Of a DNA stretch of 61,558 bases, positions 30,503 through 59,481 are shown piece by piece. Position 1 is the stretch's first letter. Each line of letters opens with the position of its first letter. The position numbers and the translations under genes are program-made. Under the pieces are notes generated by a model. That model was not told the DNA's origin, ran no database searches, and was given only the letters and a program-made list of their open reading frames with translations. The DNA comes from Psammoneis japonica. Taxonomy: Eukaryota. The stretch spans positions 558,001-619,558 of the forward strand of contig QPGO01000031.1 of the NCBI GenBank assembly GCA_008632985.1. Direction: 5' to 3'.

Positions 30503-30519
30503 CGGCCGGCAAGCAAGGT

Positions 30520-34470: not shown

Positions 34471-35580
34471 CTGATCATCGTTGGCATTGTTTCACAGAAA
34501 AGATTGCACCCACTGCAACAAACTGCACACTCTCCAACTGGGGTTCCTGCCACTTTTTGCCAAAGCTCAGACCTTGTGGTTGGTTGTCAGAGAAAGAGTT
34601 GTGTTGCAGCAGTTGTTTTCAAACTGGACCACCCACTCTGCCTTTCTTTTGTCAGATGCAATGCATGGCAGGTGTCTCTTGTCAGTTGGCGAGCTCACTT
34701 GGTTTCTCCAATGACAGCATCCACTGGAAATGAGGAAGCAAGCAACAAAAAATGCCTGGGCTGCTGGTGTGGCTTCTGTTTTTCAAGCCCCTTGAACTGC
34801 TTTGAGAAATGTGTGTTCATCAGGAGGGGGCACAAAAGCAACAACAAAGACTTTTCCTGGAACACTGTCATGCAGTGGTGCTTGATTTTTGCAAAAAAAA
34901 GCCTTGTTTTGTGTCATTTCTCTCAGCACCTTCACACCCTCCACTGAGCCTCCTGCTTGCACCCTGCCTCAAACACAGCCAGCACACAATTTTGTTGCCA
35001 TCTCTCTGCAAATGTTCTTCTCACTGTGGTGTGTCGGTGAGAGCAGGTTCTCTGAAGATGACATTGCGCACACACCGCATGCACTTCTGGCATGTCTTCC
35101 CTGCTGCTTTGCCACAACAAGCAGGTGCGCTTGGCATGCTCAGGAAGCATGTCAACCTGCCTGCTCCTGGAGTTTGCAGTGCTTCGCCCCAGCCTGGGCA
35201 CCAAGAGAGCACTGCCTGCAATGCCCTTGCTCTTGGCAAAAAAAAGCCATCGGCACAACAGCACTTTGGCTCTGGGAGGGTAGATGGAGAGGTGGTGGTG
35301 CTGTGGTGGTGCATGGCCCAAAAGGGGGGGGCTGTCACTCTGGCGGCTTCCATGAGAAGGGGGTGCAAGCATCCGCCCACTGATGTCTCAACGACGCGGT
35401 GTCGGCCGCCGGCAGCTTGTTTGTTGTGTTGCTGGCCTCTCAAGGAAGTGTGCTGGGGAGAGGAAATGTGGTGGGTTGCACGAGTTTTTTGTTGCAAATG
35501 TCACCAGCGATGGCCACCTGCCTTGGTCCAACAAAAAGCGTTGTGGTCTTGTCTGCTGTCCGGGAAGGGAAGACGGCAGA
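34470..35580. other. Unclassified TpA- and CpG-poor segment, probably a repeat remnant
   Basis: Same dinucleotide signature as the adjacent copia. No recognisable protein motif. Confidence 0.4.
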
Positions 35581-35747
35581 GCTCGGACCTCCTCGAATGA
35601 AGATTCGTCAAAAGATTCGAGAGACGCCCTATTTTCAATTGATGAATCAAGAATCCTTTCCTCCTCCTCTCTCCTCACACCTTCTCTCACGTACCGTAGT
35701 TGCTGTTCTGTCGTTATGAACAACCGTACGTAGCCCTGTGTCACACC

Positions 35748-41740: not shown

Positions 41741-42024
41741 CGGTTGTGCAGAGGTTTCGAAGTCTCGCAGACGTAAAAGGTTCTGTAGCGCAAAATTATG
41801 TGGCCAACACATGGCTATCTCCCATTCGGCATAACTCACCTCTACAGATTCGATGCACACTCCGAATGTGTGAACGATCGACCGCTTGTCACCTTTGATC
41901 CATCGAGGCTTTTCACACACATGAATACAGTACCCGATCGATCACGACGAAGCACTTTGTAAACTTTCACTAAAATATTTACGTTCATGACAAGGGCTGC
42001 GACTCGCGTTCTCAAAGAAACGCG

Positions 42025-43701
42025 CTAAATACTGAAATCATGAGTTAGATCTTTGTCTGCGTAGATCTGATGAATTGTTTCCCTGCAAACTCTGCCTATG
42101 GTTGCCTTCTTTCTCTCCCAATGGTCTACCAATGAGTGGCGAACCAGTGGGTTCATACTCAGTTGCCACCAGAAAGATCGCATGCCCCGGTAGCTGAGCT
42201 CGTATCCATCCTCGGCCGAAGGGTTCAAGAACAAGTTCACTCCTACATGTGTGTATCCCCAGCGAAGGGATCCCAAGGGGACTAAATCTCCTGCATTGGA
42301 AACACGGATGTGCTTGAGTTTTCCTGCACGTTCAAGCACCTGATAAGAGAAAAAACGGACGGGCTACGGTGAGACACAAAATGGCGAAAATTGTTTCACG
42401 CTAGCCATGATAAAATATGGAGAACATATTCTTACCTGGAAGGCCTCATTAAATGTAGAGTCTCCGACATACGGAGAGGCAAAGCTGACATTGACGACCG
42501 GCTTCTTGTTTAGATGAGCCGCGATCTTTTTGCTTCCCGCAAACTCAAAGGCCACAAGCGTACTGAGGGCACCTCCGAGGGAATGGCCTGTAACGAACAA
42601 ATCGTAACCTGCGCAACCACGTTTTTCGTATAGATCTAGAACCGCTTGCTTGATCTCGTTGTACTTCTGCTTTTGATTCGCGTGACGTTCCCCTTCCGGA
42701 GGTTGGACATTGTCGAAAAGATAGGCTGTGGGTACAAGTGCCAAACAAACAAGGGTTAAGGAATGAGTTAGTTCCTATGGGTTGCCTGGTTCCCATTCAA
42801 GCAATCCTCAACCTACTCTTGAATCCGGTGTGGACGTAAATTTCTTTATCTTTCGGGAAACCAAGATCGTCCACAACGTTAGGAGTTTCCATTTTGGAAT
42901 ACTGAAACTGGACGTTATGCCCCCAATTGTTCGTATCTTCCACAGTTCCGCCTGTTCATATCATGCAACAGGTACGCATAGTGTGAGTTAGAGATGCGGG
43001 CATGGGCTTTGTTCTGTTGTCCTGACTGACTTACGGAAAACGACCGTGATTCGCTTCTGGTCCTGTTAGCGAATAAAGGGGATATCGTGTGGGAAGAAAA
43101 AGTGAGTTAGAGCAGGACAACAGTATTGGACAAAAGCACATCGGTTAGGATCCATTCTGTTTTCTCTTACCCGGTTGACTGTAATCCCAAATACCAGATT
43201 TGTTTCCTCGAAATGATCATCAAAATCACTAATGTACGCATCCTTCAGTTTCGAGAGACTCACCAAAGCCGTCACAGACAGATCGGAATTTATTTCATCA
43301 TCATCGTTCAGTTGTGAAATATTTGATTGAACAAAGTCAAAAATTTCATTTGCAGTGATCTTTTGCTTGTCCAGTTTTCCTTGAAACTTCTTCATGCGGA
43401 TCTCCGCATCGGTCATGACCGAGGCCGTGGATTCCTGATTGGCCTCGTATGGCGACAAGATCAATTCTTCATTCTCCAGCTGTTTTTCGCGGGCTAGTTT
43501 GCGGAGGTAAGAAAGCGAGTAGATCAAGGACCCCACAAAGAGCATTGGGTCGAGAACGCAAGCAAGATCCGAAGCGTTGTGATCGTAGTCGAAACCACCG
43601 CGTTCGGTATCGCCAAGGACAGGCACCAGCCGATTGTACCTCTGCTGAAGAGTTTCCTTTTCTTCGCCGCTTCCGAACCACCCACCGAACCAACCAAACA
43701 T
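42025..43701 (-). CDS. Class-3 lipase, 5 exons (43701-43171, 43062-43035, 42951-42817, 42725-42436, 42339-42025)
   Basis: Four GT-AG introns splice in frame to give ITVVFRGT, VHTGF, VTGHSLGGA, SFASPYVGD, RVSNAGDLVP and YTHVG. Includes a 28-nt microexon. Confidence 0.9.
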
Positions 43702-44187
43702 GATATTCGATATGCTCAAATTGGGTTACCCTAGAGAGTACCTTTTTAGTGTTTGGACAATGGTCCAAGTTTGCTTGAAGTGATGTTCTACGTGGGAGAG
43801 TGAAATTTTGGATCTTGGATCTTGGGTTCTCATTTCTCATGTGTAATACACAGATAGCTCGAACAATACTTTTATTATATTACATGATACCCGTATATTA
43901 ATTATAAGGCCGGCTATCCAGCAGTTCCTCCCAGCCAGATAGAAGAAGAAGAGAAAAGGAAAAGGAAGGAAAAAATAAACATTAAAATGAAGGTTTGAAA
44001 GGGTGCGCTGCAGTGCCGTAGTGCGTGCAGTAGTGAAGACGGACGTAGACAGGTGCAGACGCGCTACGTGGAATTTGGTGCGAAGTGTCGTGTGCTTGCG
44101 TGCGCAGAAGGATGTGGATCGCCAACGGCTGGAACAAAGCAGCACACCACACAGCAGTGAGTGCAGCTCTGTCATCACGGCACTAGA

Positions 44188-45647
44188 ATGGCGGAGGACA
44201 ACATCGTTGCGTCTGGCAAAGCAGAGGATGTGGCAGCTCCGGAAGTCATGGCAGAACTCACGGGCGCCGAAGGCGCGGCGGCAGCTGCCATGACTGCACT
44301 TGGCGCCGAGGGAAGTGCCGAGGGTGTGTCCGTCGAGTCCGAATGCGCAAGGATGTCGGAGAAGCCGGCGCAGTCCCAAACTGAAAAGAGTGAGAAAGCC
44401 GTGCCGCCGGAGCCAACCTTTCAAATTTGTGGTTGGAATGAAGCACAGCAGCTGGGTTGCACCGCCGAGCAGCTCCTTGAGGCCGGTTGCAAGATCGAGT
44501 TGGTGGGTGATCAGGCCACCTTTGTGAAACCGGAGGTCCCACCTTTTTGCAGCGGCAAAAGCGAGGAGGCAGCCAAGCCCGCGGCCAAAGTGGTCACGAA
44601 AGCAACGGCGGAAGAGGAAGAAGAAGGAAAGCAATTTCCGGACCCCAACGATCCGTCACTCGACTTGTGGGACTGGGTGTTGCGGCACGAAAAATCCGAT
44701 AAATTCCAGGAGTCCATGTGCCTGATGAAGGATGCGCCGAATGATCCCGACCTCTGGTTCCCCGCTCTGGGAGAACTGGGGTGCATCAGGAGCGACCCTG
44801 AAGCCGTCGCGAATGCTCACGGCGAACACCACAAGTGGGTGTGGAGGTGCCGCACGGAAGTCGGCAAGAGGGGCATCCCAGACTCGACGCCGAAGAGCAA
44901 CAAAGTGTTCAAGACCGCCATCGAGGCTTTCGAAGCGGGGTGGTCGCTCGCACTGGTCCATCTCGTGAAGAGAGCAAGCACAGAAGTGTGCACATTTGGA
45001 TGAGGCGCCGTGTCACTTAACCTGCGTTGTTTTGCCTCGAAAAGTCCGTTCGCTCCGCAGGCCCCAAGGAGGTGGAGGTGGGCGAGCTGCGCGTGTCGCA
45101 ACGGAGGGGCGCAGGCATTGGTTTTTTTGCTTTGCGCCAGTTCCAGAAAGGCAGTGCGGTTGGAATCTACGTGGGCCCCAGGGTGCCCGGTACGACGAGG
45201 AGCTGCTCGTGGCATGACCACGACAGCAAGTTTGGAGAAGACCACAGCGTGTGCTGCTCCACCATCCGTGACAGCGAGGGCTGCTGCGTCACAGTGGAGC
45301 CAAAACCGCTTGATTTTAGCGGTCCAGGGAACAAGAATTCCCATCCACTCTGCCTCGGAATGCACTGCGTGAACGATGCCACCGAGTCGTTCAAGGACAA
45401 GAAGAAGATCAAGGCAAGCCAACACGTGGACAACAACTGCGAGTTCTACAACGACGGGTGCTTGGCAGTCACGAAGCGAATCATGCCCGGGGAGGAATTT
45501 CTCTGCAGATGCAACTTGGACGAATCGGAGAAGAAGAAGAAGAAGAGGAAGGCGATGTCGGGTGCCATGAATCGGAAGAAGAAATCGCGTCTACTCCCCA
45601 AGTCGGGGGGGAGAAGCTCTGCATCTGGCAAAACGTTTGCCGTGTAG
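44188..45647 (+). pseudogene. Cargo gene with a C-terminal SET domain (frameshift at about 45010)
   Basis: SET motifs SQRRGAGIGFFALRQFQKGSAVGIYVG, GMHCVND, NCEF and KRIMPGEEFLCRC. Basic NLS-like tail and acidic N-terminal region. Confidence 0.8.
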
Positions 45648-45869
45648 TGTGCTCTGTAAATTAGCAGCACAGTGTGTTGGTGTTTTTCAGTGAAACTGCA
45701 GCATTGGTTGGAAAGGCGTAGCCCCAGTTGTGGTTCGAAAAATGGGAACGAGGAAGAACAGAAAGTCGGCAAATTTACGCAAATCTAGCAAATTGGCAGG
45801 TGCCTGCACAGTCGCCTGAGCACAGAAAGTCAGCAAATTTACGCAAATTTAGCAAGTTATTTTGCACTG

Positions 45870-47315
45870 TCACAGTTGCCTGAGAATGGTCTCTTCCTCT
45901 AGAGAAAGGGGGATTGAATTGTTGTTCTTGCCCACTGCAGCACTCTTCAGGTAGAGAGACACGCAGAAGAACTCGTCGTTTGAGTTTGTCCTGCTGGAGA
46001 TGCAGTGGCACTTGGTGGGGTTAAAAATGATGACATCACCAAGCCGGAGTGCAACGGAGATGCCTTCGGCAGGGAAGCAGAAGTGCGCCACAATCCCGTC
46101 ATTCATGGCGCAGCTGCCGGACGGAGGGACTCCCACCACGGTGACTGCTGACAGGAAGAAGTCCTGGTCCCGATGGGCGTTGAGGAAGACATTGCGCCCA
46201 GCCGCCAGAGAGGAGAAAATGCCATCTGACCGCACCAGGGATTTCCAGTTGTGAAACTTTTTGACACGAGCGATGCCCTTGAGGATGGCACAGTCCACGC
46301 ACTCATTGACAAGGTGCTCCATGTGTGAAAGAAGTCTGGTGAGGTGGTGAGTGTGTTGGTCGGCTGTGCCAGGCTGCTTGCAAGAAATTCGAGCGTCCCT
46401 CGTGGCAGCCAGGCCAATCGTGGAATGCTTGCTCCTGTCCGTCTCCATGAAGGTAACGCGTTGTTTGCCGCGCATGGTGGGCTGGGCGGTGCAGCATTCT
46501 AGTGCTTCGAGCGCTCGGTGCTGAGCAACCAGTTCTGCTGGGTTGGGGGAGCTGAACACCACAGCAGAACGCGGCAGCAGGGTGCAGGTGTTGTCGCAGC
46601 GGCAACCGTCCAAGCCAAAGAAAGGCTTCAGATCGAGCACAGGGTCACAGACGAGCAGAGGAGCCAATTCGGCAAAGTCAATGTCAGCAAGACAAGGCGG
46701 TGCAGGCTGAGTGCAGTCGCCATTATAAACTAGAGTGCGGTTGGCTACGCAGTGTACGGAGAGACTCTTAGTGGTGCACGGTGCGAGTGGAACGAGGCAA
46801 GTAATCTTGGATGTTTTCCTGCTGGCGCGGCTGCGGATTCGCCTGCGGCTGCGGTGGGCCTTGCGAAGTGGCAGTTGAGCCCTCAACATGTTCTCGCATG
46901 TCCTGGTGCGCATTGACGATGCGGTGTTCACAGAGAACGTGTGTGCGAACTTGCCGGCAAATGTTCCGCTGCTTGACACTGTCACTGTCGTCTCAACAGT
47001 GCCCAAAGCAGAACTCTGTCGACAGGGACCGGCGGACTCCAGGGGAGTGGGGTCAAAACCCAATCGAGAGATGTGTCTGCTTTCCGTTGCCTCAAGAGCA
47101 CCCAAAGCAAAACTCTGTTGACAGGGACTGGCGGACTCCAGGGGAGTGGGGTCGAAACCCAATCGCGAGAAGCATTTGCTTGTTGTCGGGCTGCGAGCTG
47201 CACGTCCCAAACCCCCACACTGTCGAGACCGGCTGTAACTCGATCGCGACAAGTGCTTGTCGTTGGCAGGACGACGCAGCGAGGCACGAGGTAGTTGCGA
47301 CATGGTGTGTCTCAA
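45870..47315 (-). CDS. Cargo gene: TET/JBP-like 2OG-Fe(II) dioxygenase (mutated copy; start uncertain)
   Basis: IFSSLA..RN..LNAHRD (HxD), FCFP..GISVALRLGDVIIFNP..CHC (distal His) and CVSLYLK. Confidence 0.72.
   Translation of the reverse strand: MRHTMSQLPRASLRRPANDKHLSRSSYSRSRQCGGLGRAARSPTTSKCFSRLGFDPTPLESASPCQQSFALGALEATESRHISRLGFDPTPLESAGPCRQSSALGTVETTVTVSSSGTFAGKFAHTFSVNTASSMRTRTCENMLRAQLPLRKAHRSRRRIRSRASRKTSKITCLVPLAPCTTKSLSVHCVANRTLVYNGDCTQPAPPCLADIDFAELAPLLVCDPVLDLKPFFGLDGCRCDNTCTLLPRSAVVFSSPNPAELVAQHRALEALECCTAQPTMRGKQRVTFMETDRSKHSTIGLAATRDARISCKQPGTADQHTHHLTRLLSHMEHLVNECVDCAILKGIARVKKFHNWKSLVRSDGIFSSLAAGRNVFLNAHRDQDFFLSAVTVVGVPPSGSCAMNDGIVAHFCFPAEGISVALRLGDVIIFNPTKCHCISSRTNSNDEFFCVSLYLKSAAVGKNNNSIPLSLEEETILRQL
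47002..47170. repeat. Two ~70-bp direct repeats at 99-bp spacing
   Basis: cccaaagcaRaactctgtYgacagggacYggcggactccaggggagtggggtcRaaacccaatcg at 47002 and 47101. Confidence 0.85.
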
Positions 47316-47690
47316 TTTGAAATGTGTTTCAAAATGTGATGACGGAAGTGTTGTCGCGTTGTTTTTGTCTCCGCGGAGGGAGGATCATCCCACGGCAATC
47401 TCAGTGCGAGTTCTCGCGTGGAAGTGCGTTACGTGCCGTGCCAGCTCGTGCGTTTGAATTACACGGATGTGCAAGTGCGGCAACGATGAGAAGCAGTCCG
47501 AGATTCAAAACAAATTTTACCGCCCAAAGGCGTCTTATCATTTCAACGCGTCTGCACATCTGTTTAAAATGACTTCACACGTCGCTCCATGCGCAGGTAG
47601 AGGCAGCACGCCGCGTTTGAAAATTTCGCGCGCGTGGAGGGCGCGACGGTAATTTTACGCATTCTGCGCACGTCACAGTTTGGTTTGGAA

Positions 47691-48620
47691 ATGCGACGTC
47701 TGGTCGAACCCGCTGCAAGCAAGGTTGATGTTGCCACAAGGTTGGACACGATGAACCATCGTCACAGAAGTGTTGGGGAGTTTTGTCTTCAAACGGCTCC
47801 GGACTCCGCGTTCCAGAGCAGGCGTGTCTCCGGAGACGGAAGCGGATCTTCGCACGGCGGCGAAGTTGGCTTCGCTTTGAGCAGCGAAGTGTTTTTGAAC
47901 GAACGCCTTCTTGGCGTGAATCACACCTGCGACACATCTGTCGACATGGGCGGGGGAGTTGCCAGACCCAGCATCGGGCTCAAGTCACTTCGTCGCCATT
48001 GCACCGTGGTGAGCATCGAGGCCAACCACGATCGTCACCAAGAGGCTGTACGTTGGGCTCATCGTGCTGGCCTTCGCTCGAACGGCGGGTTGGAGTTGAT
48101 CAACAAGTCATTCTTGGATGACAGGCTGGCTCCTTTGTGGAAAAAGAAAGGACTCAAGGTGTTCTTCAACAACTGCAACTCCCGCATGGTCGACGACAAG
48201 AACACACAGCAGAAGGCAGAGGCGATGCTTTCGAAGTTGTGTCGTGCTGGGACCGTGGTGGTGGCGCTAGATCCGCTGTTCGCGTCGTACGCGGGAGAGT
48301 GGATGTGCGAGTCCTTCACGGCGGATTGCCATGATGGCGACTTTTTGTGGCACAGCGGAGACGTGAAACATCTCGTCTTCCACAAGCACACCAAGAAAGA
48401 GGAGACTTCTCAGTCAACCAGCCAGCACATGCGACGTCCCACTCCGACACACTTGGAACGGAAGTGTTTGCCCGTCGCGAAATGGCCAATTTTACTCAAG
48501 AACTCAACTGAACTGTTTTTTTACTGTCACTGTGCTGGACGTCACATGCTGGTTGCTCCACTCAATTCGCCATTGCTTCGCGGTAACGCAAAGTTGTCAT
48601 CGGAGATGGTGCACACTTGA
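47691..48620 (+). CDS. Cargo gene: class I SAM-dependent methyltransferase, DOT1 (H3K79)-like
   Basis: SHGGE (YGE-like), DTSVDMGGG (motif I), SIE, NKSFLD, VFFNNC (cf. IFxNNF/Y) and L..AGTVVVALDP, in DOT1 order and spacing. Confidence 0.62.
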   Translation: MRRLVEPAASKVDVATRLDTMNHRHRSVGEFCLQTAPDSAFQSRRVSGDGSGSSHGGEVGFALSSEVFLNERLLGVNHTCDTSVDMGGGVARPSIGLKSLRRHCTVVSIEANHDRHQEAVRWAHRAGLRSNGGLELINKSFLDDRLAPLWKKKGLKVFFNNCNSRMVDDKNTQQKAEAMLSKLCRAGTVVVALDPLFASYAGEWMCESFTADCHDGDFLWHSGDVKHLVFHKHTKKEETSQSTSQHMRRPTPTHLERKCLPVAKWPILLKNSTELFFYCHCAGRHMLVAPLNSPLLRGNAKLSSEMVHT

Positions 48621-48708
48621 AGAGACAGAGGAAAGCTGAGTTGCAATCGACACTCAGTTTACTGAACATTTACAAATTTACACTGCACCGGCAAAAAAAA
48701 AAAACAAC

Positions 48709-49581
48709 TCAGTCTTCGTCGCTGTCCTGAAGCACCAAGTCGTCATCGACGTTCAGGTCAACTTCGTAGTTGAGCTCGACATCATCGTCGGCCTCTTCTC
48801 CAGCTTCTTCTGCCGGAGCTCCAATGAGACGACAGAGTTCCACAGGCAACGACCCCTCGTAGAAGCAACTGTGAAGCAAGTTCTTGTTTTGGGCGCACCA
48901 ACCGATGTGAAACTGACCACCTTCCTTCTGAAGCTCGGCAAGCGCCGCCTCGTTGCCGATCACTTCGGACCAAACAGCATCCTTCATCCAGAAGAAGTCG
49001 TCTTCAACGAAGACCTCGGTGTTGTTCTCAGGGTCATCATTCAGCTGCTTCGCAATGCACTTCCCGAGGCCGCGCACTTTAGCATCGGTTGGGACTTCTT
49101 CGAGGAAGATGAAGAAGAGACGCACGGCGCAGTTCTTGGCGTTCGTCTGCAACTCGCCCTTGTGAACCCACCTGCCAGTGCAAGGGTGGAATCCGACTTG
49201 AACCGCCCACAGAGTCCTGCTGCGAAGGTTGTCAAACAGAACCTTCTCCGACCAAACATTGGTCAAAAGGGGATTCTTGGCTTGGAGACGAAAAACGACG
49301 CCTTTCTTGCGGCCGACAGTGACGGTGGCGCAGCGCAGGAGGGCGTCCTCATCGGAATGGCTGCCATCGTCAGAACCGGCGGATTTGGAAAGCTTGAACC
49401 CGTGCTTGGCAAGGCAGTCTTCCGGTTTAAGGTCGTCGTCGGTCAAGCCGTTGGTCTTGCGGGGCGGACTTAGTTTCTTCAACAGAGCATCAGAAAACTT
49501 CGTCTTTGCCTTCTTCTGTTTGGTTTCGGCGACTTTGGCTTTCGCAGCCGGGGAGGTCGTTGTGTTTCTTTTGCGTGCCAT
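48709..49581 (-). CDS. Cargo gene: hypothetical protein with a basic N-terminus and highly acidic tail
   Basis: ATG at 49581 (MARKRNTTTSPAAKAK...) within ORF 48709..49896. Ends EEAGEEADDDVE...QDSDED. Confidence 0.6.
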   Translation of the reverse strand: MARKRNTTTSPAAKAKVAETKQKKAKTKFSDALLKKLSPPRKTNGLTDDDLKPEDCLAKHGFKLSKSAGSDDGSHSDEDALLRCATVTVGRKKGVVFRLQAKNPLLTNVWSEKVLFDNLRSRTLWAVQVGFHPCTGRWVHKGELQTNAKNCAVRLFFIFLEEVPTDAKVRGLGKCIAKQLNDDPENNTEVFVEDDFFWMKDAVWSEVIGNEAALAELQKEGGQFHIGWCAQNKNLLHSCFYEGSLPVELCRLIGAPAEEAGEEADDDVELNYEVDLNVDDDLVLQDSDED

Positions 49582-50376
49582 CGAATCAGTCGGAGAGAAA
49601 TTGTGGGAACAAAAAGTGCGATCGTTCAGAAGTGCCAAGAAAGACCCAGCAGAGCTGCGTGCATCACACCAAGGAGAACTGGCAACGTCAGCAACCAGAT
49701 TCAAACACGTCGAACTGCAACAAGGCAACCTTCCAGGTGTCAGCACTTGCAAGTGGTGTGTGGATTCAATTTGAACAAAACAGATGCAAGGATCGGAGCA
49801 CGCAAAGTCGTGCCAAGTTTGCTGAAAATGCGTAAAATCACGTGCAATTCCGTCCGTGCTTCGTGTGCATTTCAGCCGTTGCTGCCGCGCGGCCATCGCG
49901 CACGAAATCTAGTCGCCAAACGGTCGACGCCATCGCTGTCACTACATGCTGTGCCGGTAGTTAGCCAAGGTGGGCCCATCACCCATTTGGAGGATTCGCG
50001 CGCACTTTGGAAACACGAATGACGTCAATCGCATTGTTGTTGCCACACGACTGACTCAACTGCCCGCCACTCGTTAAAACGTGATTCTGCGGAATTTACG
50101 TAAAGCTGCGCCCACCACCAAGATTGCCGAAACAACTTGAACAAATCCAATTACCATGGAATTCAAGCAGATGTCGAAACAACTTGAACAAGATCCAAAT
50201 CTCATCCCATGGGATGCTCAACGTCGACGAAACTAAGTGGGACATCGCACGTCTGGTGCGAAGAAGGACGTGGGAGGAACGCACACGTCACTCTTCCGTC
50301 GAGGTGAAAGAGGCACACTTTCGTCTCACTTTTTTGTGACAGAACCTTTGCGCAAAGGGAAACGAAAAGCATCCAG

Positions 50377-51070
50377 CTGCGGTGAATGGGCCACACCGAT
50401 CGCAGTTCTCAGTTCTCACAGTGACCTGGCAAGGCAGGTTGTGAGACAACGCACAAGCTCAGCTGCGGTGACTGGACGACACCAGTCGCAGCTCTCACAG
50501 AGACCTGATCGCACAGGTTGTGAGAACACGACACAACGCTGCGGTGATCGGACAGCACCGATGCAGTTCATCAAGCAACCAACTCACTTGGCTGTGGTGA
50601 CTGGACGACACCAGTCGCAGCTCTCACAGCAACCTGATTGCACAGGTTGTGAGCAAACAACACAGCGCTGCACCTCGTAATGTAGGTTGTGAGATGACGC
50701 ACAAGCTCAGCTGCGGTGACTGGACGACACCAGTCACAGCTCTCACAGAGACCTGATCGCACAGGTTGTGAGAACACGACACAACACTGCGGTGATTGGG
50801 CAGAACCGACGCAGTTCATCAAGCAACTGACCAATTCGGCTGCGGTGACTGGACAGCACCAGTCGCAGTGCTCACAGCGACCTGATTGCACAGGTTGTGA
50901 GAAGACGACACAGCGCTGCGGTGAACGGGTGGCACCGACGCGGTTCGTTGATCAACTGGACAGAACCACTGCGGTGACTGGACGACACCAGTCGCAGTGC
51001 TGCAGGTGGCGAGAAAACACACATCGCTGTGGTGATTGGACAGCACCGATCGCAGCTTCACAGTGATCGC
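50377..51070. repeat. Hairpin-rich tandem array (~129-bp unit, about 5 copies)
   Basis: gYggtgactggac(gac/agc)accagtcRcag recurs at 50465, 50594, 50713, 50842 and 50971 (spacings 129/119/129/129). Confidence 0.9.
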
Positions 51071-51142
51071 ACTGAAAAAACAACTGTTTTTGCTGAGTGA
51101 CTTCTTGAAATTTGTTGAGCCAAAGTGTCAGCTTAAATTAAA

Positions 51143-54100
51143 ATGGACGAGGCCAACTCCCGTGTTTGCAGCGCAATCAATGGAAAGTTTGAGATGCTTT
51201 GTCTACGTGGAGACGGAGAATTTAGACCACACGCATGTTCAGTCTGTGACGTTCTGCTGAAACCTAGAGAAGTTTGCCACTTGCCGCTCGAAACATTGGA
51301 ATCAGCAAGAAACTTGCTCACCCCTTCAGACTGGAACAGCGCATCTGATTGTCTCAAGTCCTGCCACACTGTAGAGCATGAAGATGCTGATTGGATCAAA
51401 GACCTGCTGCTTTCTCCCCACGCCCAATGCGCAGCACAGGAAGACAGACGACGCGTCGATGGATTCACTTGCTGCAGCAAATGCCGAAGAAGCCTGGGAA
51501 GAGCCGTTGTGCCAATGCACGCGATGGCGAACAACTGCTGTTTCGGTGCCCCGCCGCACGAACTGTTGTCTCCAACCGAAGTGGAGTTGGCAATGCTCAC
51601 ACCAGTGAAAACACACGGGTGCTGCTTCAGTTGCCTTGGCGGCAAACAGAAGAAGCTTCAGGGAAGTCTGACATGCTACAAAGTCAAGATGCAAAGCATC
51701 GTAAGAACTGTTGTGCACTTCAACGCACTGAATTTACATCAGAATGTGGTTGCACTGATGACTGGAAAGATGACTCCGGAGCAAAGACAACTTGCGCGTT
51801 CAAAGAACAGAGTTAGGATGCACTGCATGCTGAGGGCGATGGAATGGCTGTTGCACCACAACCAAGAGTGGGTGCACCAACAGACAAATCTAGATGAAGT
51901 TGGGCGTAATCTGCGGAATCCCACACTTGTCGACAGCACCGACGAAGAAGAAGGAGAAAAGCGAACAATGAGACCTCAGAGTCATTTCATGTTTGCTTTC
52001 CTGATGGAACCATGTCTCCTGCGACCGGTGGTCAGCGCAACCTGGACTGCTTCAAAGATCTTGTGCACGAAGCTGCTGCCAACGGATTTGATTTAGAGGT
52101 GCAAGCACAGTTGTCTAAAGAATCTGCGAGTGATTTCAAAGGCAACAACTTCACCAACGCGTGTCTGCTGCAGTTTCCTTTTGGCAGAGGAGGAATCAAT
52201 GAGATGAGAATGAAGAAAGACGGAAGTCTCACAGACAGCACCAACCTTGCACACTGTGCCGACCACTTGGCACGGATTTCCCAGCCTCACTTCCATGAGC
52301 AGCTCTTCGTGTTAACATGCTGCAACTTGACAATGAAGCAAAGGATGCTGCAGAGCGCAGGGTGGAAAGTCAGGGACAAGAATCAGGCTGCACAGTTTGC
52401 AAACGAACTGACAGTGGACGATGTGGACAGAGCTGTTTGTGATCGCAACTTGGGCGAGAGAAGAGATTGTGGACTTGGGCACCACTTTTTGCGCGCACTC
52501 GACGTTGCATCTGCATCTCTGCCACACAGCAACGAAGCAGCAAAGAAAATGAGGAGAAACGCCAAAACTTGTCAGCATCATTTTGGTCAGGGTGGCATTT
52601 TCTTAACCGTCAGTCCGGACGATGCAAATTTGTTTCTTGTGCAACTGTGCTCGGGTGTCATCCTGGACCCAAACGAAGACGTGACACAACTGACGGACGA
52701 AATTCTTGCTGGCAGGGCCAAGCAACGTAATGAACTGCATCTAAAGTTTCCCGGTCTAACAGCCTTTGTATTTGAGTGCTTGTTTGACATTGCAACAGAA
52801 GAGGCAGTGGGTTGGGATCTGAGTGCCAACCAACCAAGAGAAAACTTTAACTTCTACATTGGCAGGCCAGCCGCATTTTTAGCCGCAGTTGAGGAGCAGG
52901 GACGTCTGACAGCACACGGACACATGCAGATCTGGTTCGCATCGATCAACAATGCAAGAGAGAAACTGCATTCGCCAATGAGACAGATCCGATGCGAAGG
53001 TGCTGAGCACCTTGCCAACACAGTTCAGAAGATCTGCAGCACGGAATTAATCTGCAGCGAGGACTTCAGCACCAGCGCGTTGCGTGAAGCATTCGATCAT
53101 GACTGTGCAGCACCAAAAATGTGTCGCACCTCTCCAAAAGCAGCAGACGACCAACAGCTAAGAAACCTGAGGCATGAAGACGGCCAGCAGTCGAAGAACG
53201 GAATGTTTGCTTGTTGTCATCACTGCACCAAGCACTGGACAAACGTCGAGTTTGTAGAAAGCTTTTTGCAGTCACGGCACCGTGTGCCTGGCCTGACTCG
53301 CCATCCAGACAACCACGCAAAGCAACCAAAAGCAATGTGTGCACAACACCAGCGAAGTGGTCCGCAAGGGACAACAGAGGCACATGTGCCGGACGCAGCT
53401 TACAACCATCACATGCACGTTACGAAGTCGTGTTTTCCCAAATGCGCAGAGTTACGTAAAATGCGTAAAAAAACCCCACACGAGGAACTGGACGCGCTGT
53501 CAAGGAAAAGGAAACAAGAGGAGCTCAAACCAGGTGACTGCCGTCACAGGCAACCAGCTGCTTCGTGTCCAAACAATTTAGCAAGGAACACAGATGACAC
53601 TCAGATAAAGTGGTTCAGCTGGGATGGGACTTTTGCGCATCGGCACGTGAAGGAAGTTGTTCCGAAGAGGAGAAAGTGCGATGCTTTTCAAAACGTGTCG
53701 TGCCCTGCAACAAGCAGATCAAAACTGACATGCAACACAAACATTGCTTTGTTGATGCCTGGACCGTCTGCTCAATGCACGATTGGGCACATCCTAAAAG
53801 ACACCCAGAAAGATGACACTGCATCGTACAACGAAGTGCTTCGAACTACGAACAGGACAGCGACGGAATTACGGAAACACGCATCTGATGCATCGGAAGC
53901 AATCAGACGTCTCACATGGGGTGCTTGCTCGCATGACAAGACGAACGTCATTGGACCACCACTTGCGTCTTACACAACAAGGAACGGAAGCCGTTTCATC
54001 GAATCTCATTTGACTGCATGGTGCCCCTTGAAAGACATTGTCAGCACACTAGAAAGAGACGAAGTGTCTGCGACTGTAGCCCATTTTGGCGATGCACCAT

Positions 54101-56874
54101 TCTTCCAATGCCAGGCCTTGCACTGCCTGTGTCGTCCAACAGCACTGGAGAATCTCAGTCCGTTTGCGTTTTTTAGTGAATGCGAAGTTCTTCGCAACAC
54201 AAGGAAAAATGAACACGGCATGATGATGTTCAACAACAGAGCGCACAGGCACCCGTCTTGCAATTCAACAAAGAATGAGTTTCTTCAAGGTGTCAGACAG
54301 CGACAGCAACCGCGATTGTCAAAAGTGCTTCAGTGTGATTTTCCTGATGCAGCCAAGTTTGGCAGTTGCCTCACAAATCCACAGCAACCAACAACACCAG
54401 ACAAAGAATTGTGCTGCAAGTTGGCATTGGCCTTGTTTGCGCCTTACAGAACAATGACGGAACTCAAACCAATGACCCGTGCATGCCTGTGTGAATTCCA
54501 ACTCTCCGCAGCAGCCGGTGTCATTGCAGAGGAAAACTTGAACTTCTTGCAGAACCCACAGGATGCCAAGTCCAACTGCCTTCGTCTCAAAAGCACATCT
54601 GACGATCTGCAAAGAAAGACAGAGCAATTTAGACCTGCTGACGTTGCGTTTGACTGTTGCAAAAGTGACGAGGAAGAAGGTCTTTCAGGCGCCGTTCAGG
54701 GTCAACTGCTGGATGCACTCTTGGAAGAAATGGCAGAGCAGCCAGAAGACGATGACATTGGGTTGAGCGACCAAGCAGTCATTCCTGCGCATTTGAGCGG
54801 TAAACGTGCAAGACAGAAAGGTCCACACATGGGTGGTTGCAAATGCTTGGCAGACATGCACACTGACCCACCAAACGAGGAAAGCCAGGTCAATGAACGA
54901 CAACTTTTTGAGAATCTAGAGGGCAGCGATGACACCGACGAGGAAGACCAGAATGAAGGAGTGCAACAACACATCCACAGCAGACCACTGTCAAGAGACG
55001 ACATTGTTCGAGTGACACTGACTAGAACGCAAAGAACAAGAAGGTCGTTTGAGGATGTGACAGGTTTGGAAGAACACATCAATGCACGTCAAGCAAACGG
55101 ATCTGCAGCGAGCATCGTAGACTGGGCTAGGAAAGCAAGACTGGATGGGCAACAGCAGCGTGCCTTTGAAATTCTAGCAGGAACCTTTGTGCTCACTTGC
55201 TGTCAAGACGCTCTTCAAGACGAGACGTCACGCAATGGACTTAATGGGAGAAATGGCAGACACGAATTCGCAACAAACCTTCGCCGATTGAAGAAACTCG
55301 TGGAAGTGCAAAGACGCAGAACGTTGCAACTTGTGTGTTTTTTACATGGTGCAGGTGGAAGTGGCAAATCAACCACAATGGACCTCGTCGTGGGGTGCGG
55401 AAGAGAGTGTTGCTCACTTGTTGAGCAGCCATTCACAACAAGCACAATCAGAACAACTGCACTGACCGGAGTGGCTGCCACTGTTCTCAAAGGGGACACA
55501 ATCCACCGAGTTGCATGCCTCATGAGAAGAAAGCAAATGACCGAAGAGCAAATTGAAGCATGGTCAGACACGAGACTTTTGGTGGTAGACGAGATTTCTT
55601 TTGCAAGCAAGAGAGAACTGGAAAAACTCCATGAGAATTTAACAGTGTTGAAGAGCGAATTGAGCAAGCCGTGCGGTGGCATGAACATTGTTTTCGCAGG
55701 TGACCTCAGGCAACTAGAACCAGTCGGAAAAGGAGTGAAACCACTGTACAAAGATGTGTGTCCCGAGTTTCACGAGTGGATCAACTGCCACATAGAACTT
55801 CGTGGTGTGCACAGGTTTAAAGACGATCCATCATGGGGAAAACTGCTCAAGAGATTCCGCACTGGTGAGATCACAGTTGACGATGTGGAGCACATCAACG
55901 AACGAGTAGTTCAGAACAAAGATGATCTGCCCAGTGACCTCTGCTGTGCTGCGCACGCAAATAAGGACAGAGATGCAATTGACACTGGCCCATTCGAAAA
56001 AAGAGTAAAAACACTGCACAGAAGAGATGGAGACGTCCTTGACTCAATGTTGATTTTCAGTGACGACTTGCAGGTGCAGAATGGCACGAGACTCTACCAA
56101 CCATTTCCGGTTTGCAACAGCTTCTGGAACAACTGTGGTGAAGGAGACGTTGTCATGCAATCAGGAAGAATGGATCCAGTCTTACGAATTTACAGAGGAT
56201 GCAGAGTCATGACACCTTTCAACGAAAATGCAGCAAACGGTCAAGCAAACGGAACGCAAGCCACTGTTGACAAGGTCGTTCTCAAACCAGGACAGGAACC
56301 AAGACCAGTGACTTTAGACAACAACATCAGCATTCCTGCTGCACTTGCCAGTCAGGTGGACCATGTTGCATTGGAACACTGCAACAAAAGCATCGACCCC
56401 GCGAAGTTTTTAGTTGAGCCAAAAACAAATGCTTTCAGGGCTTGCATCGCCAAGCCCAGCCTAATTTTAGAAGAAGGCGACAAACAAAGACACACTTTCC
56501 AACTGAAGGCAACCCAGCTGCTGTTTGTCATCAACAATGCCACTGCAGGGCACAAACTGCAAGGGAGTGGAGTCCCGCAGTTGTTTGCACACTCTTGGAG
56601 CCACACTCAGAATTGGGTGCATGTTGTGCTCTCCAGAGTAAAGACCAGAGAAGGGCTGTTCATGCAAAAGCCACTGAGCAAGGACCTGCGAAAATGCAAG
56701 GTCCCAGAAGGCTACAAAGCCTTGACAAGACTCATGAAGGAGAGAAGCACCACGCATTTTTCTCAGCAACAGTGCGCAGAAACACCAATGCAGTGCGCAA
56801 ACATCAGATTAGGATGCTCAACCACTGTGCAACCATTTGGCGACCCCAACCGTAAAAATGCGGAAATTTCGTAA
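51143..56874 (+). pseudogene. RepHel: DUF6570-like region + HUH Rep + Pif1-family SF1B helicase (frameshift at about 51960; catalytic Tyr mutated)
   Basis: Rep motifs FPFGRGG, IFLTVSPDD, VEEQGRLTAHGH and QCTIGHILK (YxxxY..K). Helicase motifs GAGGSGKS, TGVAA...GDTIH, VVDEIS, AGDLRQLEPV, GHKLQG and VHVVLSR. Confidence 0.92.
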
Positions 56875-58030
56875 AATGGAATGTTTCGATTAGATCAGCA
56901 CATTGCGCAGAAATCTGCACATGCGTCACACAACGTCGAATGGATTTTAACCAACAAACCAAGAAACGCGAATGCAACCGTCACAGAAAACGTAGCAATG
57001 GAGAAAACATGGATTTGCAACAACAAACAAAGAAGGCAGACGAGCCAAAGAAAACTGGTGAGGACAAGAAAAAGGTGCAGACACGTGCGGAACTTCTTCA
57101 GTCATTGATGAATGAGGAAGACGAAGAGGAGATTGCCTTGGAAGAAGCAAGAGCGGCGTTTGACCTTGCTTCGGGAAATTTTGATGTCACTTCTGCACTT
57201 GTGCAAGACAACACTGACAGTGGACAGTCATCATGTGGAAACAACAGTCGCGCCCAAGGATGATTCAACCATGGAGGAGCTAAAGGCAGCATGTGCAGCG
57301 GCGATTCCACAGCGGTCGGGGAGATTTTTCACCGAGGAGGAGATGGCGGAGCAGGAGAAGGAGCAAGCAAAGTCCCTTCAGAAGAAGTGTGGCCAGAAAG
57401 AATGGAATTGAGCAAATTACAAACAACTGTTTGGCAAAGACAACCGCATCAACACTTAAAATGCATGCACATGGACTTTCACTTGAGCCGCCGCGGATTG
57501 AGTGTGGCCACAAATGAGGACCAACTGTTTGGCAAAGAAACTGTGACAATGCGTAAATTTCGTACATTTCCACATTCACTTAATCCAACGCAGCTTGCCT
57601 TGGACAACATCAACATGCACAACTGGACAACATCAATGTGCACAGACAGCCTCATGAAACCTCACAGAAGACAGAACGGTCAGAAGCAAAACAACCAGCA
57701 CCACGCACNGCATGTTGGTCATGTCGCGTGGGTCGCGCAAAAGTGCGCACCGAAATGACCGTCATGTGTTGTAATTAATTCGAACGCCCGGCGCAAAATG
57801 CAGCAAAATGATTGGTGCAGGCAATCGTCATGGCTCTATTTTCTGACAGTAGCGAGGGCGGCAATCCAAAATCTTTCGGTTTCAGACTTCGATCTAGAGA
57901 GTTCCACCTAAAAAAGAGGAGGAACCAATTTGTTTCCCGCCATATCACGCGCAAGTGGATGATGATTCGCGCGGAGCCTCACATCTCTCCACCCTCGCTC
58001 AGCCGCGCAAAGCCAGAAAATCAAACAACC

Positions 58031-59404: not shown

Positions 59405-59481
59405 NNNNNNNNNNNNNNNNNNNNNNNNNNNNNNNNNNNNNNNNNNNNNNNNNNNNNNNNNNNNNNNNNNNNNNNNNNNNN
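59405..59481. other. Assembly gap
   Basis: Run of N. Confidence 0.99.

What the first reader, a model, noticed from the sequence alone, without database searches (positions are those of the whole stretch)
45870..46700. TET/JBP-like dioxygenase: anti-methylation tool, or a clue to the T->C chemistry
Seen: HxD and distal His are intact in a double-stranded beta-helix-type motif layout, with Lys in the terminal SLYLK strand. Established: TET/JBP enzymes oxidise 5mC or thymine, and oxidised thymines such as 5-formyluracil can mispair with G. Inference: it may erase 5mC on the element. Speculatively, enzymes of this family acting on T in TpA could underlie the T->C signature.
Basis: partly seen in the sequence, partly recalled or inferred. 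Interest (0 to 1): 0.7.

Follow-up and report, generated by a model that had tools for sequence, protein, structure and literature searches.

The report
Helitron-borne TET-like gene, hypermutated copy
A rolling-circle jumping gene (Helitron) in a diatom-like genome carries a gene related to the TET/JBP enzymes that oxidise DNA bases, probably a tool against methylation silencing, but this copy has itself been scarred by the genome's TA-erasing mutation process and gives no support for being its cause.

Summary
Window 45870-47303 (minus strand) encodes a 477-aa protein. Its C-terminal 290 aa form a confidently predicted double-stranded beta-helix (pLDDT 91.4) with H-x-D-x-D, a distal His and Y-L-K.

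It has 749 cluster-level relatives and no Pfam match. Profile-profile comparison with two bona fide Pfam Tet_JBP proteins gives 97% probability. All four solved TET-type representatives head the whole-PDB structural ranking (TET2 Z 16.1). The canonical R-x-S arginine is absent, so I file it as a divergent TET/JBP-like clade.

The gene lies inside a ~14-kb high-copy block (about 43.93-57.96 kb) that also holds a Helitron Rep/helicase. A metagenome Helitron carries an intact relative.

This copy is a victim of TpA>CpA/TpG hypermutation:
- TpA observed/expected is 0.20 in the block.
- Four of five conserved Tyr positions are His or Cys.
- Both Rep catalytic Tyr are Cys and His.

Nothing here supports the idea that the enzyme causes the T>C signature.

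The scan had already noted the TpA signature many times in this genome, and another transposon-borne TET-like gene.

The parts
43934..57960 (+). High-copy repeated block, about 14 kb: one copy of a non-autonomous-looking (mutated) Helitron with cargo genes. The boundaries are approximate.
   Evidence: read laying: summed contig depth is 2497-5169 in all bins from 43956 to 58299, against 48-92 in the flanking bins that lie wholly outside it. 3987 contigs of run X1 were laid (1335 at >=99%, 1227 at 95-99%, 1119 at 90-95%, 306 at <90%). A unique contig ends at 43933 and another begins at 57961. GC is 0.48-0.56 against about 0.45-0.47 in the flanks. TpA o/e is 0.20. Exact termini (5'-TC, CTRR-3', hairpin) were not established.
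45870..47303 (-). CDS of the TET/JBP-like dioxygenase (477 aa plus stop). N-terminal low-complexity part with a basic stretch; catalytic domain at 45873-46742.
46161..46175 (-). H190-x-D192-x-D194 motif. H and D192 are the predicted Fe(II) ligands. D194 is invariant and is a candidate for the base-recognising Asp/Asn of TETs.
   Evidence: comparison with CMD1 D350, TET2 N1387 and NgTET1 D234 from PMC7854593, inferred
45945..46007 (-). Distal His246 through Y264-L-K266 (last core strand). No Arg at the canonical R-x-S position (E257/F258).
   Evidence: register inferred from the alignment ranges
46083..46427 (-). Four family-conserved Tyr positions now His or Cys: H106 CAT (46425-46427), C148 TGC (46299-46301), C211 TGC (46110-46112), H220 CAC (46083-46085). 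Each is one TpA>CpA or TpA>TpG step from a Tyr codon.
47002..47181 (-). 99-nt tandem repeat (1.8 copies), giving a 33-aa repeat in the N-terminal region of the protein.
47751..48620 (+). Divergently oriented neighbour gene: a SAM-methyltransferase-like, DOT1-like protein (a lead, not proven).
   Evidence: One relative, P0152, 54% identical, starting at Met51 of the frame. 17 of 30 ESM-Atlas hits fall in the DOT1 PF08123 set. A weak profile hit to an O-methyltransferase motif I, E 0.074. No Pfam hit. The AlphaFold2 model failed (pLDDT 33.7).
45021..45647 (+). Open frame with a weak SET-domain resemblance; may be spurious.
   Evidence: Pfam SET E 0.039, 14.8 bits, below the 22.4 cut-off, covering profile positions 1-102 of 105. 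PDB PR/SET hits at E 0.7-1.
51137..52096 (+). DUF6570 frame that precedes the Rep/helicase, as in the metagenome Helitron L001.
   Evidence: Pfam PF20209 E 1.7e-12; L001 has the same layout.
51910..56874 (+). Helitron Rep/helicase frame (1654 codons): Helitron_like_N plus PIF1-like helicase. The HUH motif is at 52915 and Walker A at 55348.
53776..53790 (+). Rep tyrosine motif destroyed. The L001 relative has F-Y-V-T-S-Y-G-A-K; the window has Q-C-T-I-G-H-I-L-K (C623 TGC, H627 CAC).
   Evidence: BLASTP alignment; codons
50424..51048 (.). 248/129-nt tandem repeats between the cargo genes and the Rep/helicase.

Best explanation
The stretch is a real gene for a divergent member of the TET/JBP branch of the Fe(II)-dependent dioxygenases. 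It is carried as cargo by a high-copy Helitron of about 14 kb, in a genome that earlier notes of this scan call diatom-like.

Shown:
- homology and fold;
- a conserved metal triad;
- location inside a repeated block that also holds the Rep/helicase;
- an independent Helitron in a metagenome that carries an intact relative.

Inferred:
- In intact copies the enzyme flips a methylated pyrimidine out of DNA, most likely 5-methylcytosine, and oxidises it. This would lift the host's methylation-based silencing of the element, as proposed for fungal TET+ transposons.
- The divergently transcribed DOT1-like methyltransferase may belong to the same anti-silencing cargo.

Shown for this copy: it has been hit by the genome's repeat-directed TpA>CpA/TpG hypermutation. 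Two nearly invariant Tyr are now His, two further Tyr positions are Cys, and both Rep catalytic Tyr are lost. It is most likely an inactive relic. Its open frame and intact H-x-D...H survive only because this mutation type cannot make stop codons or touch His and Asp codons.
For: Homology:
- 749 relatives at E<=1e-3.
- hhalign against two Pfam-confirmed Tet_JBP proteins gives 97.0%, E 8.5e-11, 128 columns. It aligns H190, D192, R233 (of L-R-x-G-D) and H246 with their counterparts.

Fold:
- The model has pLDDT 91.4.
- VIA-align ranks 1-4 are TET2 (Z 16.1, rmsd 3.3, 229 aligned), NgTET1 (13.7), CMD1 (12.8) and CcTet (12.4); the next is OsALKBH1 at 11.8.
- Foldseek's top rows are CcTet, CMD1, NgTET1 and TET2, E 3.4e-8 to 1e-6.
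- ESM Atlas: 23 of 30 hits fall in the PF12851 set, and one near cluster is mostly Bacillariophyta.
- One relative is a Seminavis robusta protein.

Cargo:
- Depth is 2497-5169 across 43956-58299, against 48-92 in the flanks.
- Rep/helicase Pfam hits.
- L001 holds DUF6570 + Rep/helicase + a TET-like ORF on one strand within 10.7 kb. Its Rep is only 26% identical to the window's, so the link is old or repeated.
- Precedent: fungal Helitron1 and Helitron2 families encode TET/JBP (PMC12730594, passages).
- Diatoms put repressive 5mC on repeats (PMC12344493, passages).

Hypermutation of this copy:
- 160 TpA against 797 expected in the block.
- o/e: TA 0.20, TG 1.46, CA 1.42, CG 0.86, against TA 0.59 in the flanks.
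- Domain Tyr is 2 of 290 (0.7%), below all 75 relatives (1.1-6.3%). Cys is 5.5%, above all 75 (maximum 5.2%).
- Tyr columns: Y106 (70/75 Y)>H, Y220 (66/75)>H, Y211 (36)>C, Y148 (32)>C; only Y264 is kept.
- Rep/helicase Tyr is 0.5% against 3.1% in L001. The 48 L001 Tyr align in the window to H 7, C 8, F 10, Y 3 and other residues 20.
- Rep Y-motif Tyr are now C and H.
Against: - No Pfam match for the window protein even at E<=10. Only 13 of 76 relatives give sub-threshold Tet_JBP hits (best E 0.003), and 16 of 76 give equally weak Cupin_2 hits.
- In Foldseek a prolyl hydroxylase (E 7.9e-7) is level with TET2, so that ranking alone does not separate TETs from other 2OG oxygenases.
- The canonical C5-carboxylate Arg of TETs (R-x-S) is missing. 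The matching columns are D/E and V/I/F in the family. Co-substrate use is therefore open.
- Substrate (5mC, T, 6mA or RNA) is not testable here.
- That the 14-kb block is one element rests on even depth and on the L001 parallel, not on mapped termini. In the window the gene is upstream and antisense to Rep; in L001 it is downstream and on the same strand.
- 2 and 6 other family members also have His at columns 106 and 220, so these changes might be tolerated.
- Only one Helitron-linked relative could be examined.
Confidence: 0.6

Rival explanations
1. The enzyme is the mutator. It oxidises thymine in TpA to 5-hydroxymethyl- or 5-formyluracil, which mispairs with G and gives the repeat-restricted T>C/A>G signature.
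For: - TpA is self-complementary, so T oxidation and A deamination predict the same footprint.
- TET-type enzymes can act on thymine: NgTET1, the second-best structural match, is reported to do so (Pais 2015, as cited in PMC12344493), and TETs make 5hmU in mouse ES cells (as cited in PMC7854593).
- The genome holds at least two transposon-borne TET-like gene types.
- That 5-formyluracil is mutagenic is recalled, not checked here.
Against: - This gene and its Helitron are themselves heavily mutated, which does not serve the element.
- TpA loss is as strong or stronger (o/e 0.07-0.17) at 22-24 and 26-36 kb, in other repeats. A six-frame HMM search finds only one TET-like stretch in the window, so any action would have to be in trans.
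- L001 carries an intact relative, yet TpA o/e is 0.45 and its Tyr are kept.
- The invariant Asp just after H-x-D resembles the residue that reads the cytosine N4 amino group; thymine O4 does not pair well with it in CMD1 (PMC7854593).
- The one paper on the signature proposes an ADAT2-type adenosine deaminase and does not mention TET or dioxygenases.
Confidence: 0.05
2. The enzyme hypermodifies DNA rather than erasing methylation. Like CMD1, it may use a co-substrate other than 2OG, or start a multi-step base modification that masks the element from host recognition.
For: - The family lacks the canonical C5-carboxylate Arg. CMD1 also lacks a working one and uses vitamin C (PMC7854593).
- CMD1 is the third-best structural match.
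- Another transposon in this genome is noted to carry a TET-like domain fused to a phage-type transferase-like domain (not checked by me).
- The Pfam-confirmed viral relatives L002 and L003 sit beside ParB-like genes, as in phage base-modification clusters (the cluster type is recalled).
Against: - No transferase, kinase or glycosyltransferase was recognised in the block.
- R251 (R or K in 67 of 76) or R233 could still bind 2OG.
Confidence: 0.15
3. A passenger. A host or foreign dioxygenase gene was captured by the Helitron, as Helitrons often do, with no role for the element. Its substrate may be RNA, protein or a small molecule.
For: - Helitrons capture gene fragments (established knowledge).
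- The gene's orientation and position differ between the window and L001.
- General 2OG oxygenases score only 4-5 Z units lower.
Against: - Two Helitrons whose Rep proteins are only 26% identical both carry a full-length member of this family.
- The L001 copy keeps every conserved residue checked.
- The nearest solved structures are all nucleic-acid-base oxidases.
Confidence: 0.15

Closest known systems
TET/JBP dioxygenase genes encoded by fungal DNA transposons, including Helitron1 and Helitron2 (Kojima 2025, PMC12730594, passages read; Iyer et al. 2014, seen only in reference lists, not held)
   Same: A TET/JBP-type oxygenase gene rides inside a DNA transposon beside its transposase. A Helitron Rep/helicase is the partner, the element is multi-copy, and the proposed role is escape from methylation silencing.
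   Different: The host is a diatom-like alga, not a fungus. The protein is not recognised by Pfam Tet_JBP and lacks the R-x-S arginine. A DOT1-like methyltransferase lies beside it. The copy is damaged by TpA>CpA/TpG hypermutation. My searches found no paper linking TET/JBP, Helitrons and diatoms.
Solved TET-type enzymes: human TET2 (9hxv, 4nm6), Naegleria NgTET1 (4lt5, 5cg8), Chlamydomonas CMD1 (7cy4-7cy8), Coprinopsis CcTet (7vpn, 7w5p)
   Same: Best structural matches. Shared features: the H-x-D...H triad; a conserved Arg about 100 residues upstream (R91, compare CMD1 R244); an acidic residue just after H-x-D; and an aromatic-x-basic/polar pair on the last strand (Y264/K266, compare Y1902/H1904, F295/H297, F416/R418). 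The register is inferred.
   Different: 10-14% identity. No Arg at the TET2 R1896 / NgTET1 R289 position. The conserved Asp is at H+4 rather than H+5. No Cys-rich domain. Activity is unknown.
TpA>TpG/CpA hypermutation of integrated viral DNA in Bigelowiella natans (Mettrop et al., bioRxiv 10.64898/2026.01.13.699255; abstract, Results and Discussion read)
   Same: The same footprint is seen here: TpA depleted, CpA+TpG enriched, restricted to foreign or repeated DNA.
   Different: That work is on a chlorarachniophyte and on single-copy viral inserts. It proposes an ADAT2-like adenosine deaminase and names no dioxygenase. Here the targets are a Helitron and other repeats of a diatom-like genome.
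Viral Pfam Tet_JBP proteins (loci L002 and L003 from IMG/VR)
   Same: Profile-profile homology with the family (97%). Shared Y-F-C-F-P and L-R-x-G-D strands.
   Different: The viral proteins keep R-L-S-L-V-F-Y-Y-R with the canonical Arg, pass the Pfam cut-off (78 and 97 bits against 34.9) and sit next to ParB-like genes.

Membership tests
TET/JBP (Pfam PF12851 Tet_JBP) | Match to the Pfam model at or above the gathering score | tested here: not met
   0 families for the window protein at E<=10. 13 of 76 relatives hit only below threshold, best E 0.003. 0 of 47 long relatives hit at E<=1e-3.
TET/JBP (Pfam PF12851 Tet_JBP) | Detectable homology to proteins that do pass the model | tested here: met
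   hhalign of A1 (76 sequences) against A6 (L002 and L003 proteins; Tet_JBP E 4.9e-22 and 7.6e-28): probability 97.0%, E 8.5e-11, 128 columns.
TET/JBP (Pfam PF12851 Tet_JBP) | Double-stranded beta-helix fold closest to solved TET-type structures | tested here: met
   VIA-align ranks 1-4 of 48,161 chains are TET2, NgTET1, CMD1 and CcTet (Z 16.1-12.4), the next being 11.8. Foldseek's top rows are TET-type, but a prolyl hydroxylase is level with TET2.
TET/JBP (Pfam PF12851 Tet_JBP) | Fe(II) triad H-x-D...H | tested here: met
   H190 76/76, D192 75/76, H246 76/76; all present in the window.
TET/JBP (Pfam PF12851 Tet_JBP) | C-terminal Arg of R-x-S that binds the 2OG C5-carboxylate (TET2 R1896, NgTET1 R289; PMC7854593) | tested here: not met
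   hhalign puts the template Arg opposite E257. The alignment ranges put it at F258. Column 257 is D 38 / E 11 and column 258 is V 28 / I 18 / F 7 of 76. R251 (R/K 67 of 76) or R233 might substitute; this was not tested.
TET/JBP (Pfam PF12851 Tet_JBP) | Upstream Arg for the 2OG C1-carboxylate and stacking on the base (TET2 R1261, CMD1 R244) | tested here: inconclusive
   R91 is 74/76 and lies 99 residues before H190 (CMD1: 101). No residue-level structural alignment was available.
TET/JBP (Pfam PF12851 Tet_JBP) | Base-recognition residues: Asp/Asn after H-x-D; aromatic plus His/Arg on the last strand | tested here: inconclusive
   D194 is 76/76 at H+4 (TETs: H+5). Y264 and K266 are 73/76 each. 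The ends of the VIA ranges (model 270 to TET2 1908; model 273 to NgTET1 304) put Y264 and K266 on Y1902/H1904 and F295/H297 if those ends are ungapped.
TET/JBP (Pfam PF12851 Tet_JBP) | Oxidation of 5mC or T in nucleic acid | not testable with these tools
   Needs enzyme assays and LC-MS.
Helitron (rolling-circle transposon) | Rep (HUH plus Tyr motif) fused to a PIF1-like helicase | tested here: met
   Pfam Helitron_like_N E 1.1e-9 and PIF1 E 2.3e-14 in 51910-56874; DUF6570 upstream. HUH is present. In this copy both motif Tyr are replaced by Cys and His, so it should be catalytically dead.
Helitron (rolling-circle transposon) | Termini 5'-TC...CTRR-3' with a 3' hairpin, inserted at A|T | tested here: inconclusive
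   A possible A|TC lies at 43916|43917. No convincing CTRR-plus-hairpin was seen by eye near 57.9 kb. No second copy was available to align.
Helitron (rolling-circle transposon) | Many copies in the genome | tested here: met
   3987 contigs of one DNA run lie on the block at 85-100% identity. Summed depth is about 50-fold that of the flanks. Summed depth is not a copy number.
DOT1-like methyltransferase (neighbour gene 47751-48620) | Match to Pfam DOT1 (PF08123) or to a DOT1 fold | tested here: inconclusive
   No Pfam hit for the frame or for its relative P0152. The structure model failed (pLDDT 33.7). 17 of 30 ESM-Atlas hits fall in the DOT1 set. The likeness of F-F-N-N-C-N to the DOT1 motif is recalled.

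The most novel reading that the evidence does not exclude
Members of this TET/JBP-like clade, expressed from many Helitron copies or from a domesticated copy, oxidise thymine at TpA on either strand. The oxidised base (5-formyluracil type) pairs with G, so the enzyme family, and not an adenosine deaminase, writes the repeat-restricted TpA>CpA/TpG hypermutation seen in this genome and in Bigelowiella. The sequence footprint cannot separate the two chemistries, and TET-type enzymes are known to accept thymine. Nothing found here speaks positively for this reading.
Probability: 0.05. Interest if true: 0.9.

Novelty: new variant of a known kind. Interest (0 to 1): 0.45.

Why it matters
- In the papers I could search, transposon-borne TET/JBP genes are described only in fungi. 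Finding a large TET-like clade that Pfam does not see (at least 749 clusters at 50% identity), linked to Helitrons in diatom-type algae, widens the idea that mobile DNA carries its own tools against epigenetic silencing to a major group of marine phototrophs.
- The possible pairing with a DOT1-like methyltransferase hints at a two-enzyme anti-heterochromatin cassette.
- The missing canonical arginine raises the question of which co-substrate the clade uses.
- The copy shows what TpA hypermutation does to proteins: Tyr becomes His or Cys, while frames stay open and His/Asp catalytic motifs stay untouched. This is a practical warning for annotating such genomes.
- The attractive idea that this enzyme explains the T>C chemistry remains open and testable, but it gained no support here.

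Tried and rejected
- Whole-genome search: no genome is held.
- PDB sequence searches, with the single protein and with the A1 profile: no meaningful hit.
- The search for homologous proteins with the A1 profile returned only 1 protein because of the candidate cap. The single-protein search returned only P0002.
- Viral-contig scan with A2: 0 relatives. tblastn of the domain against 50,697 phage records: no match. Genome-contig scan with P0005: none.
- The metagenome scan gave only L001, so the Helitron link rests on the window plus one locus.
- Expression: no RNA holder is listed. Run X2 behaves like a transcriptome: its contigs skip 77-108-nt segments with GT..AG or CT..AC ends in the flanking host genes. 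It has no contig on 44608-57647 at >=85% identity. This is no evidence either way.
- AlphaFold2 of the DOT1-like neighbour with a 2-sequence alignment failed (pLDDT 33.7), so no fold search was made.
- I first read the adjacent CA<>TG double differences between copies (six cases among the 40 rows shown) as CpG deamination on both strands. I dropped that as the main reading because TpA, not CpG, is the depleted dinucleotide. The 40 rows shown are a mix of CG<>TG/CA and TA<>TG/CA changes, 290 more rows were not shown, and the changes cannot be polarised.
- Helitron termini could not be fixed by eye.
- Literature: the phrase 'tet jbp' found nothing because of the slash. 'jbp'+'tet'+'helitron' (23 papers), 'jbp'+'tet'+'diatom' (21) and 'helitron'+'diatom'+'dioxygenase' (2) gave no report of a diatom or stramenopile Helitron with a TET-like gene. 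Iyer 2014 (PMC3918813) is not held.
- Supplements were not looked at. Those of the Mettrop preprint are closed, and its tables of TpA-depleted genes might list Helitron or dioxygenase domains.
Full report
**What is there**

The minus strand of 45870-47384 is open for 504 codons. From the first Met the CDS is 47303..45873 plus a stop, 477 aa.

The N-terminal 200 residues are low-complexity. They hold a 33-aa tandem repeat, encoded by the 99-nt repeat at 47002-47181, and a basic stretch.

**Is it a real, conserved domain?**

Yes.
- HMMER over 1.84 billion cluster representatives found 749 proteins at E<=1e-3, 456 at <=1e-10 and 11 at <=1e-30.
- In a 76-sequence alignment (the window plus 75 of the 150 listed hits, chosen for covering most of the domain), H190, D194, D236 and H246 are invariant. 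D192 is 75/76, R91 74/76, R233 69 R plus 5 K, Y264 73/76 and K266 73/76.
- AlphaFold2 on this alignment gives pLDDT 91.4 and pTM 0.90.
- One relative is an 'unknown protein' of the diatom Seminavis robusta. Another is labelled as from a Comamonadaceae MAG.

**Which family?**

Pfam finds nothing in the window protein at E<=10. It finds nothing at E<=1e-3 in 47 long relatives. Scanning all 76 members gives only sub-threshold hints: Tet_JBP in 13 (best E 0.003) and Cupin_2 in 16 (best 0.018). PDB sequence searches are empty.

Three other lines agree on TET/JBP.
1. Structure.
   - VIA-align against 48,161 PDB representatives ranks TET2 (Z 16.1, rmsd 3.3, 229 aligned), NgTET1 (13.7), CMD1 (12.8) and CcTet (12.4) first to fourth. 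OsALKBH1 (11.8) and plant oxygenases follow.
   - Foldseek's first 16 rows are the same four proteins (E 3.4e-8 to 7e-7). A prolyl hydroxylase at 7.9e-7 is level with TET2, so Foldseek alone does not discriminate.
2. Profile-profile comparison.
   - A viral-contig scan with a 10-member sub-alignment fetched two IMG/VR loci. Their 302-aa ORFs pass Pfam Tet_JBP (78.3 and 97.2 bits against a cut-off of 34.9).
   - hhalign of the family profile against these two gives probability 97.0%, E 8.5e-11, over 128 columns. It pairs H190, D192, R233 and H246 with their counterparts.
3. ESM Atlas. 23 of 30 feature hits fall in the set of clusters carrying PF12851. A neighbouring cluster is mostly Bacillariophyta.

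**How it differs from canonical TETs**

The CMD1 structure paper (PMC7854593, passages) lists the residues that define the TET active site:
- two Arg for the 2OG carboxylates (TET2 R1261/R1896, NgTET1 R224/R289);
- an Asp/Asn five residues after the first His, which reads cytosine N4;
- an aromatic and a His/Arg on the last strand, which hold the flipped base.

In this family:
- hhalign places the template R-x-S arginine opposite E257.
- The ends of the VIA ranges (model 270 to TET2 1908; model 273 to NgTET1 304) place it at F258, if those ends are ungapped.
- Column 257 is D/E and column 258 is V/I/F, so the canonical arginine is absent.
- In the same register Y264 and K266 fall on Y1902/H1904, F295/H297 and F416/R418. 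This is inference.
- D194 (76/76) sits at H+4 rather than H+5.

I therefore call it a divergent TET/JBP-like clade rather than a member of the Pfam-defined family. Its co-substrate is open.

**Context: a Helitron**

Downstream on the plus strand lie a DUF6570 frame (51137-52096) and a 1654-codon frame with Helitron_like_N and PIF1-like helicase domains (51910-56874).

I laid the contigs of the one DNA run that holds the stretch on 42000-61558.
- Summed depth is 2497-5169 in every bin from 43956 to 58299, against 48-92 in the flanking bins.
- 3987 contigs lie on it at 85-100% identity.
- Unique contigs stop at 43933 and start at 57961.

The TET-like gene thus lies inside one evenly repeated block of about 14 kb, together with the Rep/helicase. 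The termini could not be fixed.

There is independent support. The only metagenome locus found (L001, 10.7 kb) has DUF6570 + Rep/helicase (26% identical to the window's) followed on the same strand by a 636-codon TET-like frame, 42% identical to the window's domain. Only these two genes are shared.

Fungal Helitron1 and Helitron2 families that encode TET/JBP are in print (PMC12730594). My searches found no such report for diatoms or other algae.

**Other cargo**

Divergent from the TET-like gene is a frame at 47751-48620.
- It has one 54%-identical relative.
- 17 of 30 ESM-Atlas hits fall in the DOT1 set.
- There is a weak methyltransferase motif I hit.
- There is no Pfam hit, and the structure model failed.

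It is a lead only. A SET-like resemblance at 45021-45647 is weaker still (E 0.039).

**The copy is hypermutated**

- The block has 160 TpA where 797 are expected.
- o/e is TA 0.20, TG 1.46, CA 1.42 and CG 0.86, against TA 0.59 in the flanks.
- In 2-kb steps, TpA o/e is 0.16-0.24 across 44-58 kb. It is 0.07-0.17 at 22-24 and 26-36 kb, in other repeats. It is 0.43-0.80 elsewhere.
- Differences among copies are almost all transitions: A>G 69, T>C 70, C>T 62, G>A 68, with transversions at 2-7 each.

This is the footprint shown experimentally in Bigelowiella natans (bioRxiv 10.64898/2026.01.13.699255). Earlier notes of this scan record it many times in this genome.

One of those notes (Tyr to Cys/His in a Copia protein) prompted a test here.
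- The window's TET-like domain has 2 Tyr in 290 residues (0.7%), below all 75 relatives (1.1-6.3%).
- Its Cys content is 5.5%, above all 75.
- Of the five columns where Tyr is the commonest residue, it has His at two (70/75 and 66/75 Tyr), Cys at two, and Tyr only at Y264.
- The codons are CAT, CAC, TGC and TGC, each one TpA step from Tyr.
- The Rep/helicase has 0.5% Tyr against 3.1% in L001.
- Where L001 has the Rep motif F-Y-V-T-S-Y-G-A-K, the window has Q-C-T-I-G-H-I-L-K, with TGC and CAC.

This Helitron copy should therefore be unable to transpose, and its dioxygenase is probably impaired. TpA>CpA/TpG changes cannot create stop codons: TAA and TAG run at 4.2 and 3.4 per kb here against about 9 in the flanks, while TGA is unchanged. 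They also cannot alter His or Asp codons. This explains why the frame and the triad look intact.

**The T>C idea**

TpA is self-complementary, so thymine oxidation and adenine deamination leave the same mark. TET-type enzymes can accept thymine (cited in PMC12344493 and PMC7854593). The idea is therefore not excluded, but nothing here favours it.
- The gene is a victim of the process.
- Other repeats of the window are hit as hard or harder, and the window holds only this one TET-like stretch.
- The intact L001 relative sits in DNA with TpA o/e 0.45 and keeps its tyrosines.
- The invariant Asp after H-x-D fits cytosine better than thymine by analogy with CMD1.
- The published proposal is an ADAT2-type deaminase. 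That paper does not mention TET, dioxygenases or Helitrons.

**Verdict**

This is a real and fairly novel gene family in a known kind of arrangement: a transposon-borne TET-like oxidase, here in an algal Helitron. It is represented by a mutated relic. The anti-methylation role is the best-supported mechanism, but it is inferred. The mutator role is a long shot.

Noticed in passing
window 21593-21814 and 30085-30287: Two direct repeats, 96-97% identical and about 8.5 kb apart, look like the LTRs of a retroelement. The interior is strongly TpA-depleted (o/e 0.07-0.17 in most 2-kb steps). The long frames I tried gave no reverse transcriptase or integrase Pfam hit.
   Followed up: partly
window 30001-36000: This stretch is depleted in both TpA (o/e 0.07-0.13) and CpG (0.23-0.52). 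The TET-bearing Helitron keeps CpG near normal (0.68-1.02). This would fit less 5mC deamination on the Helitron, or simply a younger age. No Pfam domain was found in four long frames here.
   Followed up: partly
window 47559 and 57859; 50426-51084: Some contigs join 57859 back to 47559, and others skip or repeat parts of the 248/129-nt tandem array. These point to rearranged, tandem or internally deleted copies of the element (tables 5 and 5c).
   Followed up: no
window 42337-43170 and 58237-58328: Contigs of run X2 skip 77-108-nt segments with CT..AC or GT..AG ends. X2 therefore behaves like spliced RNA, and the genes on both sides of the Helitron are expressed host genes with short introns.
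   Followed up: no
window 46109 and 46698: At two places inside the TET-like gene the window has C where all laid contigs have T, in G-T-G context (A426T and a silent change). If the window is the derived state, these are T>C changes outside TpA.
   Followed up: partly
protein P0003 (closest relative, 45% identical): It has N in place of D192, C in place of R233 and C in place of R251. It looks like a decayed copy of another kind (G>A, and C>T at CpG) from another organism.
   Followed up: no
window 35700-38264; 17885-19666: Host-type genes: a cyclic-nucleotide-binding plus DUF6909 protein, and an adenine deaminase of the amidohydrolase type. The latter is an enzyme of free adenine, not a DNA editor.
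   Followed up: no
L002 6584-8219 and L003 6788-9386: The two viral Tet_JBP genes each follow a gene that looks ParB-like by eye. In L003 they are followed by frames that look like an acetyltransferase and an amidotransferase by eye. This layout recalls phage base-hypermodification clusters (the cluster type is recalled).
   Followed up: no
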